NCBI RefSeq assembly: GCF_003018255.1
Contig: NZ_CP027440.1
Origin: Escherichia coli
Lineage (GTDB): Bacteria > Pseudomonadota > Gammaproteobacteria > Enterobacterales > Enterobacteriaceae
Direction: 5' to 3' (one strand)
Length of the DNA stretch: 64,000 bases
Shown piece after piece: positions 2,041 to 62,216 of this stretch. The notes beneath the pieces are model-generated. The model made no database searches and had not been told where the DNA came from. It saw only the letters and a list, made by a program, of their open reading frames with translations. Every line of letters starts with the position of its first letter. The first letter of the stretch is position 1. A program made the position numbers and the translations under genes.

Positions 2041-3050
2041 ACGGTAAAAAACTTTATATCTCGGACGTCACGTTGCGTGACGGTATGCACGCCATTCGTC
2101 ATCAGTATTCATTGGAAAACGTTCGCCAGGTTGCCAAAGCACTGGACGATGCCCGCGTGGATTCGATTGAAGTGGCCCACGGCGACGGTTTGCAAGGTTC
2201 CAGCTTTAACTATGGTTTCGGCGCACATAGCGACCTTGAATGGATTGAAGCGGCGGCGGATGTGGTGAAGCACGCCAAAATCGCGACGTTGTTGCTGCCT
2301 GGAATCGGCACTATTCACGATCTGAAAAATGCCTGGCAGGCTGGCGCGCGGGTGGTTCGTGTGGCTACGCACTGTACCGAAGCTGATGTTTCCGCCCAGC
2401 ATATTCAGTATGCTCGCGAGCTCGGAATGGACACCGTTGGTTTTCTGATGATGAGCCATATGACCACGCCGGAGAATCTCGCAAAGCAGGCAAAGCTGAT
2501 GGAAGGCTACGGTGCGACCTGTATTTATGTGGTGGATTCTGGCGGTGCGATGAACATGAGCGATATCCGTGACCGTTTCCGCGCTCTGAAAGCAGTGCTG
2601 AAACCAGAAACGCAAACCGGCATACACGCTCACCATAACCTGAGTCTTGGCGTGGCGAACTCTATCGCGGCGGTGGAAGAGGGCTGCGACCGAATCGACG
2701 CCAGCCTCGCGGGAATGGGCGCGGGCGCAGGTAACGCGCCGCTGGAAGTTTTTATTGCCGCCGCGGATAAACTGGGTTGGCAGCATGGGACCGATCTCTA
2801 TGCGTTAATGGATGCCGCTGACGACCTGGTGCGTCCGTTGCAGGATCGACCGGTACGAGTCGATCGCGAAACGCTGGCGCTGGGATACGCTGGTGTTTAC
2901 TCGAGCTTCCTGCGTCACTGTGAAACGGCGGCGGCGCGTTATGGCTTAAGCGCGGTGGATATTCTCGTTGAGCTGGGCAAACGCCGGATGGTTGGCGGCC
3001 AGGAGGATATGATCGTCGACGTGGCGCTGGATCTGCGCAACAACAAATAA
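2037..3050 (+). CDS. mhpE: 4-hydroxy-2-oxovalerate aldolase
   Basis: 337 aa; recognised as MhpE; ATGA-coupled to mhpF. Confidence 0.95.
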
Positions 3051-3097
3051 TGATGACTGCCGAGAACGTGCATTTTGTATGCCCATCCCAGCACGAC

Positions 3098-58515: not shown

Positions 58516-59619
58516 GTGCAGGACGAGTATTACATGGCGCGGGCGCTAAAGCTGGCGCAACGAGGACGTTTTACCACGCATCCCAACCCGAATGTCGGGT
58601 GCGTCATTGTCAAAGATGGCGAAATTGTCGGTGAAGGTTACCATCAACGCGCGGGTGAACCGCATGCCGAGGTACACGCGTTGCGCATGGCCGGCGAAAA
58701 AGCCAAAGGCGCAACGGCGTATGTCACACTCGAACCCTGTAGCCATCATGGTCGTACGCCACCGTGTTGTGATGCATTAATTGCTGCGGGCGTGGCGCGC
58801 GTGGTTGCTGCAATGCAAGACCCCAATCCGCAGGTCGCTGGACGTGGACTTTACCGTCTGCAACAGGCTGGCATTGACGTCAGCCACGGGCTGATGATGA
58901 GTGAAGCTGAGCAATTGAATAAAGGCTTTCTCAAACGGATGCGCACCGGCTTTCCTTATATTCAGTTAAAACTTGGCGCATCGCTTGATGGTCGCACGGC
59001 GATGGCGAGTGGCGAAAGCCAGTGGATCACTTCACCTCAGGCGAGGCGCGACGTACAACGACTGCGCGCGCAAAGTCATGCCATTTTAACCAGCAGCGCC
59101 ACGGTGCTGGCGGATGATCCAGCCTTAACAGTGCGTTGGTCTGAACTGGATGAACAAACTCAGGGACTCTACCCGCAACAAAATCTCCGCCAGCCGGTAC
59201 GTATTGTGATTGATAGCCAAAATCGCGTGACGCCGGAACATCGCATTGTGCAGCAGCCCGGCGAAACCTGGTTCGCGCGTACGCAGGAAGATTCTCGTGA
59301 GTGGCCGGAAACGGTGCGTACCTTGCTGATTCCAGAGCATAAAGGTCACCTGGATCTGGTTGTACTAATGATGCAACTGGGTAAACAGCAGATTAACAGC
59401 ATCTGGGTGGAAGCGGGGCCAACGCTCGCTGGCGCATTGCTACAGGCGGGTTTAGTCGATGAGCTGATTGTCTATATCGCACCTAAACTATTAGGCAACG
59501 ACGCCCGTGGATTATGCACGCTGCCAGGGCTTGAGAAATTAGCCGACGCTCCCCAATTTAAATTCAAAGAGATACGTCATGTAGGCCCGGATGTTTGCCT
59601 GCATTTAGTGGGTGCATGA
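58516..59619 (+). CDS. ribD: bifunctional riboflavin biosynthesis deaminase/reductase
   Basis: GTG start 58516; 367 aa; CMP/dCMP deaminase zinc motif HAE...PCxxC. Confidence 0.95.
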
Positions 59620-59707
59620 TCTCCCGGCTCGAAAGGGAAGCAGCGCACGAAATATTATGCTAAAATCCGCCCCCCTGCGGGGCCATACTCGAACCCGAAG
59701 GAAGAAA

Positions 59708-60178
59708 ATGAACATTATTGAAGCTAACGTTGCTACCCCGGACGCTCGCGTCGCCATCACCATCGCGCGTTTCAACAACTTTATCAATGACAGCCTGCTG
59801 GAAGGTGCAATTGACGCACTGAAACGTATCGGTCAGGTAAAAGATGAAAACATTACCGTTGTTTGGGTGCCAGGTGCCTATGAGCTGCCGCTGGCGGCGG
59901 GTGCACTGGCTAAAACCGGTAAATACGACGCGGTGATTGCGCTGGGTACGGTTATTCGTGGTGGCACTGCCCACTTTGAATATGTCGCTGGTGGTGCAAG
60001 CAACGGCCTGGCGCATGTTGCCCAGGACAGCGAAATTCCGGTTGCTTTTGGGGTTCTGACCACTGAAAGCATTGAACAAGCGATCGAACGTGCTGGCACC
60101 AAAGCTGGCAACAAAGGTGCAGAAGCTGCACTGACCGCGCTTGAAATGATTAATGTATTGAAAGCCATCAAGGCCTGA
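59708..60178 (+). CDS. ribE: 6,7-dimethyl-8-ribityllumazine synthase
   Basis: ATG 59708 ([23 protein letters not shown]...), 156 aa (also called ribH); track ORF from 59612 is an extension. Confidence 0.95.
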
Positions 60179-60197
60179 AATTAGTAAGGGGAAATCC

Positions 60198-60617
60198 GTG
60201 AAACCTGCTGCTCGTCGCCGCGCTCGTGAGTGTGCCGTCCAGGCGCTCTACTCCTGGCAGTTGTCCCAGAACGACATCGCTGATGTTGAATACCAGTTCC
60301 TGGCTGAACAGGATGTAAAAGACGTTGACGTCCTGTACTTCCGTGAGCTGCTGGCCGGGGTGGCGACTAACACCGCATACCTCGACGGACTGATGAAGCC
60401 GTACCTGTCCCGTCTGCTGGAAGAACTGGGCCAGGTAGAAAAAGCAGTACTGCGCATTGCGCTGTACGAGCTGTCTAAACGTAGCGATGTGCCATACAAA
60501 GTGGCCATTAACGAAGCGATCGAACTGGCGAAATCGTTCGGCGCAGAAGACAGCCATAAGTTCGTCAACGGCGTACTCGATAAAGCAGCACCTGTGATTC
60601 GCCCTAACAAAAAGTAA
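60198..60617 (+). CDS. nusB: transcription antitermination factor NusB
   Basis: GTG start 60198; 139 aa; recognised as NusB. Confidence 0.95.
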
Positions 60618-60622
60618 TATCC

Positions 60623-60676
60623 AGGCCGGTAGATTCACGGAAGACCGTTCCATGATCGCCGGCCTTTTCTTTTTTA
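60623..60676 (+). terminator. hairpin plus U-tract between nusB and thiL
   Basis: ggccggtag...atgatcgccggcc imperfect stem followed by ttttcttttttt at 60665-60676. Confidence 0.6.
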
Positions 60677-60694
60677 CCTGCTGAGGCATAACGT

Positions 60695-61672
60695 ATGGCA
60701 TGTGGCGAGTTCTCCCTGATTGCCCGTTATTTTGACCGTGTAAGAAGTTCTCGTCTTGATGTCGAACTGGGCATCGGCGACGATTGCGCTCTTCTCAATA
60801 TCCCCGAGAAACAGACCCTGGCGATCAGCACTGATACGCTGGTGGCGGGCAACCACTTCCTCCCTGATATCGATCCTGCTGATCTGGCTTATAAAGCACT
60901 GGCGGTGAACCTAAGCGATCTGGCAGCGATGGGGGCCGATCCGGCCTGGCTGACGCTGGCATTAACCTTACCGGACGTAGACGAAGCGTGGCTTGAGTCC
61001 TTCAGCGACAGCTTGTTTGATCTTCTCAATTATTACGATATGCAACTCATTGGCGGCGATACCACGCGTGGGCCATTATCAATGACGTTGGGTATCCACG
61101 GCTTTGTTCCGATGGGACGAGCCTTAACGCGCTCTGGGGCGAAACCGGGTGACTGGATCTATGTGACCGGTACACCGGGCGATAGCGCTGCCGGGCTGGC
61201 GATTTTGCAAAACCGTTTGCAGGTTGCCGATGCTAAAGATGCGGACTACTTGATCAAACGTCATCTCCGTCCGTCGCCGCGTATTTTACAGGGGCAGGCA
61301 CTGCGCGATCTGGCAAATTCAGCTATCGATCTCTCTGACGGTCTGATTTCCGATCTCGGGCATATCGTGAAAGCCAGCGACTGCGGCGCACGTATTGACC
61401 TGGCATTGCTGCCGTTTTCTGATGCGCTTTCTCGCCATGTTGAACCGGAACAGGCGCTGCGTTGGGCGCTCTCTGGTGGTGAAGATTACGAGTTGTGTTT
61501 CACGGTGCCGGAACTGAACCGTGGCGCGCTGGATGTGGCTCTCGGACACCTGGGCGTACCGTTTACCTGTATCGGGCAAATGACCGCCGATATCGAAGGG
61601 CTTTGTTTTATTCGTGACGGCGAACCTGTCACGTTAGACTGGAAAGGATATGACCATTTTGCCACGCCATAA
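60695..61672 (+). CDS. thiL: thiamine-monophosphate kinase
   Basis: 325 aa; AIR-synthase-related fold; recognised as ThiL. Confidence 0.93.
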
Positions 61673-62168
61673 AGATGTCGCGAAAAGTCGCCTGAAAATG
61701 AGTAATCCGTGGCATCTGCTTGCTGTCGGATTCGGAAGTGGATTAAGCCCGATCGTTCCTGGCACGATGGGGTCGCTGGCGGCGATTCCCTTCTGGTATC
61801 TGATGACTTTTTTGCCCTGGCAGCTCTATTCGCTGGTGGTAATGCTGGGGATCTGTATCGGCGTCTATCTTTGTCATCAAACGGCGAAAGACATGGGCGT
61901 GCACGATCACGGCAGTATTGTCTGGGACGAATTTATTGGTATGTGGATTACGCTCATGGCGCTGCCGACCAATGACTGGCAGTGGGTTACCGCCGGATTT
62001 GTGATTTTCCGTATTCTGGATATGTGGAAGCCGTGGCCGATCCGCTGGTTTGATCACAATGTACATGGCGGCATGGGGATCATGATTGACGATATTGTCG
62101 CCGGGGTGATCTCCGCTGGCATCCTGTATTTTATCGGTCATCACTGGCCGCTGGGTATTCTGTCGTAG
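61650..62168 (+). CDS. pgpA: phosphatidylglycerophosphatase A
   Basis: 172 aa membrane protein; start overlaps the thiL 3' end by 23 bp. Confidence 0.93.
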
Positions 62169-62177
62169 TTGTGCACC

Positions 62178-62216
62178 GATGCCTGATGTGACGCTTGTCA
62201 CGTCTCATCAGGCCTG
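62178..62216. repeat. REP palindrome between convergent pgpA and yajO
   Basis: gatgcctgatgtgacgcttgtcacgtctcatcaggcctgc. Confidence 0.75.

What the first reader, a model, noticed from the sequence alone, without database searches (positions are those of the whole stretch)
60618..60694. Structured spacer with U-tract between nusB and thiL inside the nrdR-ribD-ribE-nusB-thiL-pgpA cluster
Every other junction in this cluster is tight or overlapping (nrdR/ribD 3 bp, thiL/pgpA 23-bp overlap), but nusB-thiL has a 77-bp spacer with an imperfect GC-rich hairpin followed by ttttcttttttt. This looks like a partial terminator or attenuator that could uncouple thiL-pgpA from the upstream genes.
Basis: seen in the sequence. 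Interest (0 to 1): 0.2.

Follow-up and report, generated by a model that had tools for sequence, protein, structure and literature searches.

The report
Leaky terminator between nusB and thiL
The 77-base gap between the E. coli genes nusB and thiL holds an ordinary hairpin-plus-U-run transcription stop signal that lets only part of the transcripts continue into thiL-pgpA; its RNA end is already in a published E. coli data set, so it is real but not new.

Summary
The window is E. coli chromosome. The spacer is identical to K-12 MG1655 apart from the nusB stop codon.

**What is there.** The 77-bp nusB-thiL spacer (60618-60694) holds a 43-nt, 17-bp hairpin (60623-60665; -23 kcal/mol, z -4.7, 0 of 200 shuffles). 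A TTTTCTTTTTT run follows at 60665-75. It is the strongest hairpin-plus-T-tract in the 64-kb window.

- The T run has 11 bases, not 12.
- "Every other junction is tight" is wrong: ribD-ribE is 88 bp.

**Experimental support.** Published Term-seq (Adams et al. 2021) places an RNA 3' end at MG1655 435608, which is window 60669, inside the U-tract. Coverage falls 4-fold across the junction, and part of that fall is bicyclomycin-sensitive.

**Conservation.** In 75 of 79 distinct Enterobacterales spacers a G-C-closed hairpin with a T-rich tail sits in the same place. The base of the stem is conserved (CCGG on both arms in 68 of 80) with G-C to A-U compensatory changes beside it. The top is unalignable but always pairs.

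**What it is not.** I found no riboswitch, BoxA, antiterminator or dispersed repeat.

**Best reading.** It is a leaky intrinsic terminator that steps thiL-pgpA expression down relative to ribE-nusB. The ribosome stopping at nusB, 5 nt upstream, probably weakens it, and Rho probably adds termination inside thiL.

The kind is known and this instance is already recorded, so interest is low.

The parts
60198..60617 (+). nusB coding sequence (GTG start, TAA stop at 60615-60617)
   Evidence: ORF list. RefSeq annotation of the identical K-12 and RM14723 loci.
60618..60694 (+). nusB-thiL spacer, 77 bp
   Evidence: Identical to K-12 MG1655. Single copy per E. coli genome.
60623..60665 (+). Terminator hairpin, 43 nt, 17 pairs (A60623-U60665 outermost; G-C closed 60624-60664)
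   Evidence: -23.0 kcal/mol, z -4.74, 0 of 200 shuffles. It persists in the MFE and centroid of a 231-nt context. It is the top-ranked site in the window.
60623..60630 (+). 5' arm of the conserved basal stem (AGGCCGGU); it starts 5 nt after the nusB stop codon
   Evidence: CCGG is present on both arms in 68 of 80 spacers. The two pairs outside it are 97% paired, with G-C replaced by A-U in 8 and 16 sequences.
60631..60657 (+). Variable upper part of the hairpin (sequence free, pairing kept)
   Evidence: Unalignable between genera. Nearly all spacer substitutions within Escherichia fall here. Five Escherichia variants all fold at -23 to -27.5 kcal/mol, z -4.3 to -6.5.
60658..60665 (+). 3' arm of the basal stem (GCCGGCCU)
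60665..60675 (+). U-tract TTTTCTTTTTT (10 T of 11)
   Evidence: Read directly from the sequence. Orthologues have a median of 8 T in the 11 nt after the stem.
60669..60669 (+). Mapped RNA 3' end (MG1655 435608)
   Evidence: Adams et al. 2021 Term-seq, supplementary file 1: 4139.75 reads in LB OD 0.4 and 2616.98 in M63 OD 0.4. Coordinate conversion checked.
60676..60694 (+). thiL leader with Shine-Dalgarno GAGG (60683-60686), 8 nt before the ATG
   Evidence: CTGCTGAGGCATAACGTATG is nearly invariant in 42 Enterobacteriaceae spacers. The distance from hairpin end to ATG is 29-30 nt in 45 of 75.
60695..61672 (+). thiL coding sequence (downstream gene reached by read-through)
   Evidence: Treated as an essential gene in PMC4898720.
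60859..60859 (+). Peak position of a bicyclomycin-sensitive (Rho) region inside thiL (MG1655 435798); resolution is 800-nt windows
   Evidence: Adams et al. 2021 supplementary file 2: -BCM 244 upstream / 61 downstream, +BCM 185 / 106, Rho score 2.29, p 1.1e-5.
61650..62168 (+). pgpA coding sequence, overlapping thiL by 23 bp

Best explanation
This is a leaky intrinsic (Rho-independent) terminator inside the nrdR-ribD-ribE-nusB-thiL-pgpA gene string of E. coli.

RNA polymerase coming from upstream transcribes the nusB stop codon. Five nt later it transcribes a 43-nt hairpin, then U4CU6. A fraction of polymerases release there, giving nusB-terminated mRNAs whose 3' hairpin also protects them from exonucleases. 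The rest read through and provide the mRNA for thiL and pgpA, so these two genes are expressed at a lower level than ribE-nusB.

Two further layers are inferred.
1. The hairpin's 5' arm starts only 5 nt after the nusB stop codon, so a ribosome terminating there should occlude the base of the stem. That would lower termination efficiency and make read-through depend on nusB translation.
2. Some read-through transcripts are ended by Rho inside thiL.

Shown: the structure, the U-tract, the in vivo 3' end, the drop in coverage and the conservation.

Inferred: that the 3' end arises by termination rather than trimming, that thiL depends on read-through, and the ribosome effect.
For: **Anatomy**
- The hairpin gives -23 kcal/mol, z -4.74, 0 of 200 shuffles, followed by 10 T in 11.
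- It is the top-ranked hairpin-plus-T-tract of the 64-kb window on either strand.

**In vivo**
- A Term-seq 3' end at MG1655 435608 (window 60669) lies 5 nt past the last G-C pair. It appears in LB OD 0.4 and M63 OD 0.4 (PMC7815308).
- DirectRNA-seq coverage downstream/upstream is 61/244 = 0.25 untreated and 106/185 = 0.57 with bicyclomycin.

**Conservation**
- All 80 fetched Enterobacterales loci keep a 44-137-bp spacer.
- 75 of 79 distinct spacers have a G-C-closed hairpin plus T-rich tail. Of these, 71 have z < -2.
- The basal pairs covary between G-C and A-U.
- The upper stem differs in sequence but stays paired, even within Escherichia.

**Read-through needed**
- No sigma-70-like site was found on the + strand between 59659 and 63404, a stretch that covers nusB and the spacer.
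- Only 29 nt separate the hairpin from the thiL ATG.
- thiL is treated as essential in PMC4898720.
- The RegulonDB-style operon name ribE-nusB-thiL-pgpA is quoted in PMC8743547.
- nusB-thiL co-transcription was shown by RT-PCR in V. cholerae.

**Ribosome effect**
- Terminator tR2 placed 8-9 bp after a stop codon is almost fully repressed, and it reaches about 0.9 efficiency beyond 30 bp (PMC4824070).
- The gap from the stop codon to the first G-C pair is 6-8 nt in 64 of 75 spacers.
Against: - No experiment here separates true termination from exonuclease trimming back to the hairpin.
- The coverage drop is measured in 800-nt windows and is partly bicyclomycin-sensitive. The share due to the intrinsic terminator is therefore unknown.
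- The Term-seq end is not listed for stationary phase (LB OD 2.0).
- The 3' end lies 5 nt after the stem rather than the usual 7-9, which would need slight trimming.
- I could not obtain transcription-start data, so a weak promoter inside nusB is not excluded.
- The short stop-to-hairpin distance may simply reflect compact genomes rather than selection for ribosome gating.
Confidence: 0.78

Rival explanations
1. The hairpin is a protective 3' stem-loop, not a terminator. Polymerase reads through, Rho terminates diffusely inside thiL, and PNPase/RNase II trim the RNA back to the hairpin. This creates the precise 3' end at 60669.
For: - A bicyclomycin-sensitive region is centred at window 60859, inside thiL, with Rho score 2.29.
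- Dar and Sorek 2018 show that Rho-dependent transcripts end at stable stem-loops after trimming (PMC6061677).
- The mapped end is only 5 nt past the stem, which fits trimming.
Against: - In Dar and Sorek's data, stem-loops at Rho-dependent ends are not followed by U-rich sequence. Here the stem is followed by 10 T in 11, and the T-rich tail is conserved, with a median of 8 of 11 in 75 spacers.
- With bicyclomycin the downstream/upstream ratio is still 0.57, not about 1.
- The two mechanisms can coexist, so this is more a partial contributor than an alternative.
Confidence: 0.15
2. It is a regulated attenuator or riboswitch-like leader of thiL. An alternative structure or a bound ligand or protein (thiamine pyrophosphate, or NusB/NusE through a BoxA) would switch the terminator on and off.
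For: - The position immediately upstream of a thiamine-pathway gene and downstream of an antitermination-factor gene is suggestive.
- The Term-seq end is condition-dependent: it is absent from the LB OD 2.0 list.
Against: - No Rfam family matches, even at E-value up to 1 in the window or at gathering thresholds in five other genera.
- No competing structure appears, and the hairpin is kept in the MFE and centroid of the 231-nt context, whose overall z is -0.19.
- The only part large enough to be an aptamer is hypervariable.
- No BoxA-like match lies in or near nusB-thiL, and the window-wide count is at chance level.
- The 10-codon mini-ORF at 60652-60684 loses its ATG in the common E. coli haplotype.
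Confidence: 0.04
3. It is a chance palindrome or a copy of a dispersed repeat (REP-like) with no role in transcription.
For: The GGCCGG...CCGGCC base superficially resembles REP ends. A real REP-like palindrome lies nearby, between pgpA and yajO.
Against: - There is one copy per genome in 5424 E. coli genomes.
- 0 of 200 shuffles fold as well.
- It is conserved in place across Enterobacterales, with covariation.
- An RNA 3' end maps to it.
Confidence: 0.02

Closest known systems
Canonical intrinsic (Rho-independent) terminators, e.g. lambda tR2
   Same: Both have a GC-rich stem closed next to a U-tract and lie on the same strand just after a stop codon. The RNA 3' end falls in the U-tract and the hairpin stabilises the upstream mRNA.
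   Different: The hairpin is long (43 nt, 17 pairs with internal mismatches) and in two parts: a conserved base and a free-evolving top. In Pantoea and Erwinia it is the compact 16-19-nt form. It sits between genes listed as one operon (ribE-nusB-thiL-pgpA), so it must be leaky.
[quoted passage not shown]
   Same: A terminator between an abundant upstream product and low-abundance downstream enzymes. Downstream RNA is a fixed fraction of upstream RNA, here 0.25.
   Different: No dedicated antitermination signal or downstream internal promoter was found here. The termination efficiency has not been measured directly.
Terminators repressed by a ribosome at a nearby stop codon (tR2 position series of Li et al. 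2016, PMC4824070; the pyrBI attenuator cited there)
   Same: The stop codon lies 5 nt before the hairpin, within the range where tR2 was almost fully repressed. The spacing is conserved at 6-8 nt to the first G-C pair in 64 of 75 spacers.
   Different: The effect is untested for this site. Unlike pyrBI, there is no leader peptide or nucleotide-sensing pause.
Stem-loops that mark trimmed ends of Rho-dependent transcripts (Dar and Sorek 2018, PMC6061677)
   Same: A stable stem-loop lies at a precise steady-state 3' end, with a bicyclomycin-sensitive region a few hundred nt downstream.
   Different: Those stem-loops lack a U-rich tail. This one has a strong, conserved one.

Membership tests
Intrinsic (Rho-independent) terminator | Stable GC-rich stem-loop in the nascent RNA | tested here: met
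   -23.0 kcal/mol, 17 pairs, z -4.74, 0 of 200 shuffles. It persists in the longer context.
Intrinsic (Rho-independent) terminator | U-rich tract of about 7-9 nt directly 3' of the stem | tested here: met
   TTTTCTTTTTT at 60665-60675. Conserved in orthologues, with a median of 8 T in 11.
Intrinsic (Rho-independent) terminator | RNA 3' ends in vivo map within the U-tract | tested here: met
   Published Term-seq end at MG1655 435608 = window 60669 in two conditions. This is literature data, not generated here.
Intrinsic (Rho-independent) terminator | Termination independent of Rho | tested here: inconclusive
   The downstream/upstream ratio is 0.25 without and 0.57 with bicyclomycin, in 800-nt windows. 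A residual drop remains, but it cannot be assigned to this site.
Intrinsic (Rho-independent) terminator | Release of RNA by purified RNA polymerase in vitro | not testable with these tools
   Needs a single-round transcription assay.
Regulated attenuator / riboswitch leader | Mutually exclusive antiterminator structure or conserved ligand-binding domain | tested here: not met
   No Rfam match. No alternative fold. The upper hairpin is hypervariable.
Regulated attenuator / riboswitch leader | Conserved leader peptide coupling translation to termination | tested here: not met
   The only mini-ORF (60652-60684) loses its ATG in the common E. coli haplotype.
Nus-factor (BoxA) controlled site | BoxA sequence near the site | tested here: not met
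   No match to TGCTCTTTAACAA with up to 3 mismatches in 59400-62000 on the + strand. 24 matches window-wide against 17.8 expected.
REP / dispersed palindromic repeat | Many similar copies per genome | tested here: not met
   Exactly one place per genome in 5424 E. coli genomes.

The most novel reading that the evidence does not exclude
The terminator may be a translation-gated valve. Its 5' arm begins 5 nt after the nusB stop codon, and that spacing is conserved across Enterobacterales. The ribosome finishing NusB would therefore decide whether the stem can close. Read-through into the essential thiL (and pgpA) would then report how tightly nusB translation follows transcription, and Rho inside thiL would remove uncoupled read-through transcripts as a second tier. 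The free-evolving upper stem would only add folding energy.
Probability: 0.3. Interest if true: 0.35.

Novelty: already known. Interest (0 to 1): 0.12.

Why it matters
The site explains how two low-abundance enzyme genes (thiL, pgpA) can sit in one gene string behind more strongly expressed genes (ribE, nusB) without a promoter of their own. It is a clean, conserved example of a terminator whose base and U-tract are fixed while its top evolves freely.

It does not open a new question. The kind of element is textbook, and the RNA end is already in a public E. coli data set, where it is filed as 'orphan' only because it lies 52 nt rather than 50 or fewer nt past the stop codon. Its practical value is a corrected annotation of the ribE-nusB-thiL-pgpA unit, and a natural test case for ribosome-terminator interference.

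Tried and rejected
**Analyses that gave nothing**
- The built-in terminator scan did not list the site, because its loop limit is 3-8 nt. I replaced it with my own window-wide scan.
- MAFFT plus RNAalifold on 42 spacers returned no consensus structure, because the upper stems cannot be aligned by sequence. I replaced it with per-sequence folding against shuffles and a CCGG-anchored pair count with slid-partner controls.
- Rfam gave only a sub-threshold naRNA4 hit in the pgpA-yajO spacer and nothing in five other genera.
- The BoxA search found nothing near the site.
- The dispersed-repeat idea was rejected: the element is single copy.
- A mutational hotspot in the upper stem was rejected. The most divergent E. 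coli variant differs at 11 of 27 positions, but that strain is 9.6% divergent across the whole cluster and other 27-nt windows reach 14. This is fast but not exceptional.
- The mini-ORF MIAGLFFFTC (60652-60684) is not conserved.

**Literature dead ends**
- No supplementary text was held for PMC9023263, PMC6061677, PMC8848933 or PMC5145812.
- The SMRT-Cappable-seq supplements contain no nusB or thiL entry.
- Four papers were not held under the PMC ids I tried. I therefore obtained no transcription-start, protein-synthesis-rate or Hfq-binding data.
- I could not retrieve the 1984 nusB sequencing papers, which I recall from memory may already mention this hairpin.

Full report
**Identity of the locus.** The window is E. 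coli chromosome. A 501-bp query around the site matches 5424 of 5426 complete E. coli genomes and is 100% identical to strain RM14723. In K-12 MG1655 the same genes are annotated as nrdR, ribD, ribE, nusB, thiL and pgpA, followed by the convergent yajO and dxs. The spacer is identical to K-12 except that the nusB stop codon is TAA instead of TGA. The coordinate conversion is MG1655 = window + 374939.

**Check of the observation.** nusB ends at 60617 and thiL starts at 60695, so the stated interval 60618-60694 is exactly the 77-bp spacer.
- Bases 60623-60665 fold into a 17-pair hairpin. Eight pairs form the base (AGGCCGGU/GCCGGCCU) and three shorter helices sit above it.
- Folded alone it gives -23.0 kcal/mol against -11.35 +/- 2.46 for dinucleotide-preserving shuffles (z -4.74, 0 of 200 as stable).
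- It is followed by TTTTCTTTTTT (60665-60675).
- The tool's consensus terminator scan does not list it, only because that scan allows loops of 3-8 nt.
- My own scan of both strands for T-rich 11-mers preceded by a hairpin ranks this site first in the whole 64-kb window.
nrdR/ribD (3 bp) and thiL/pgpA (23-bp overlap) are as stated. ribD/ribE has an 88-bp spacer and ribE/nusB has 19 bp.

**Experimental evidence already published.** Adams et al. 2021 (eLife, PMC7815308) list a Term-seq 3' end at MG1655 435608 on the + strand.
- The flanking sequence they give is this hairpin and U-tract. Average read counts are 4139.75 in LB at OD 0.4 and 2616.98 in M63 glucose at OD 0.4. The end is not in the LB OD 2.0 sheet.
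- I checked that 435608 is the C in CCUUUUC|UUUUUU, which is window 60669, 5 nt after the last G-C pair.
- The authors class it as 'orphan'. Their 'primary' class requires an end within 50 bp of a stop codon, and this one is 52 nt away.
- The same paper's DirectRNA-seq table reports a bicyclomycin-sensitive region centred at 435798 (window 60859, inside thiL). Counts are 244 upstream and 61 downstream without the drug, and 185 and 106 with it (Rho score 2.29, p 1.1e-5).
- Steady-state RNA in the 800 nt downstream is therefore 25% of that in the 800 nt upstream, rising to 57% when Rho is inhibited.
Coverage is not uniform and a 3' end is present.

**Comparative evidence.** A scan of one genome per species with NusB returned 80 Enterobacterales loci. 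All have thiL directly downstream, with a spacer of 44-137 bp.
- Every spacer printed shows a GGCCGG...CCGGCC-type hairpin.
- With a stricter finder (G-C closing pair, at least 5 T in the next 8), 75 of 79 distinct spacers qualify. Median values are -20.5 kcal/mol, z -3.75 and 8 T in the next 11. Of the 75, 71 have z < -2 and 33 have 0 of 200 shuffles as stable.
- The four that fail keep the hairpin but have a degraded T-run.
- The geometry is also conserved. The first G-C pair lies 6-8 nt after the nusB stop in 64 of 75, and the hairpin ends 29-30 nt before the thiL ATG in 45 of 75.
- Anchoring on the CCGG motif rather than on folding, the two pairs outside it are 97% paired and switch between G-C (56 and 48 sequences) and A-U (8 and 16). 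Sliding the partner by one base destroys the pairing at alternate positions.
- Enterobacteriaceae proper carry a long, 33-45-nt version whose upper part cannot be aligned between genera. Erwinia, Pantoea and several others carry a compact 16-19-nt hairpin.
- Within Escherichia, nearly all substitutions in the spacer fall in the upper stem, 60631-60657. The base, the U-tract and the thiL leader are invariant.
- The five Escherichia variants all fold alike, at -23 to -27.5 kcal/mol with z -4.3 to -6.5.
- Taken together, the base pairs and the U-run are selected, and the top needs only to pair.

**What it is not.**
- Rfam finds nothing here or in the orthologous loci of five other genera. There is no thiamine pyrophosphate or other riboswitch.
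- In a 231-nt context the hairpin is retained in both the MFE and the centroid structure. The context as a whole is no more structured than shuffles (z -0.19), so I see no antiterminator.
- There is no BoxA-like sequence near the site. The Nus-factor autoregulation known in enterobacteria acts at suhB (PMC5725501).
- The element is single copy in every E. coli genome, so it is not a REP or another dispersed repeat.
- A 10-codon ORF inside the 3' arm (60652-60684) loses its start codon in the common E. coli haplotype.

**Mechanism.** The best-supported reading is a leaky intrinsic terminator.
- Shown: the hairpin, the U-tract, the in vivo 3' end within the U-tract, the 4-fold fall in RNA across the junction, and conservation with covariation.
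- Inferred: that thiL-pgpA depend on read-through. No sigma-70-like site was found on the + strand in nusB or the spacer. Only 29 nt separate the hairpin from the thiL ATG. thiL is treated as essential (PMC4898720). The operon is listed as ribE-nusB-thiL-pgpA (PMC8743547). In V. cholerae the nusB-thiL junction is co-transcribed (PMC5312566).
- First inferred layer, leakiness. Li et al. (PMC4824070) found terminator tR2 almost fully repressed when placed 8-9 bp after a stop codon, and fully active (about 0.9) beyond 30 bp, because the terminating ribosome blocks the stem. Here the stem begins 5 nt after the stop codon, and that spacing is conserved.
- Second inferred layer, Rho. It ends some read-through transcripts inside thiL, as the bicyclomycin data suggest.

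**Main rival.** The 3' end could be made by exonuclease trimming of Rho-terminated transcripts back to a protective stem-loop (Dar and Sorek 2018, PMC6061677). In that study such stem-loops are characteristically not followed by U-rich sequence. Here the U-tract is strong and conserved. I therefore treat trimming as a possible contributor, not the explanation.

**Comparison with known systems and novelty.** The site meets the sequence and 3'-end criteria of an intrinsic terminator. Rho-independence is unresolved, and in vitro release cannot be tested here. It works like the internal partial terminators that set expression ratios within operons, and like terminators damped by a nearby stop codon. 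It fails the tests for attenuator or riboswitch, BoxA site and REP. The kind is textbook, and the RNA end of this very site is in a published table. From memory, unverified, the 1984 nusB sequencing papers may also have noted the hairpin. I rate it as already known, with low interest (0.12).

**Most novel reading not excluded.** The conserved 5-nt spacing could make the terminator a translation-gated valve for the essential thiL gene, with Rho as a second tier. I give this about 0.3 probability and modest interest if true.

Noticed in passing
window 59620-59707 (3' end at 59683): The ribD-ribE spacer (88 bp) is larger than the one flagged. Published Term-seq lists a 3' end at MG1655 434622 (window 59683), right after CCGCCCCCCUGCGGGGC and with no U-tract. 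A sigma-70-like TCGAAA-18-TATTAT lies at 59629-59658. This may be a processed or paused end next to the ribE promoter.
   Followed up: partly
window 60859 (inside thiL) and 61783 (inside pgpA): A bicyclomycin-sensitive (Rho) region peaks inside thiL, with Rho score 2.29. A separate Term-seq 3' end lies inside pgpA (MG1655 436722, LB OD 0.4). Both suggest further step-downs along thiL-pgpA.
   Followed up: partly
window 60676-60697: The thiL leader CTGCTGAGGCATAACGTATG is nearly invariant across 42 Enterobacteriaceae spacers, although the adjacent upper hairpin is unalignable. That is more conservation than a Shine-Dalgarno alone would need. Erwinia and Pantoea have different leaders.
   Followed up: no
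window 60631-60657: The upper stem of the terminator is among the fastest-changing 27-nt windows of the cluster, and it changes by multi-base replacements that keep pairing. It differs at 11 of 27 positions from E. coli isolate L3_CS7_E2980, which is 9.6% divergent locus-wide; the 99th percentile of 27-nt windows is 12.
   Followed up: yes
window 62181-62214: A REP-like palindrome, GCCTGATG...CATCAGGC, lies between the convergent pgpA and yajO genes. It gives a weak sub-threshold naRNA4 match (24.1 bits, E 0.49).
   Followed up: no
window 60652-60684: A ten-codon ORF (MIAGLFFFTC) sits inside the 3' arm and U-tract, and its stop overlaps the thiL Shine-Dalgarno. The ATG is replaced by GCG in the common E. 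coli haplotype, so it is probably meaningless.
   Followed up: yes
L080 (Hafnia) 2921-3057 and L081 (Edwardsiella) 2921-3029: In these two genera the spacer is 137 and 109 bp. The compact GGCCGGTTTTCCGGCC terminator is nested inside a larger predicted structure of -46 to -48 kcal/mol, whose nature I did not examine.
   Followed up: no
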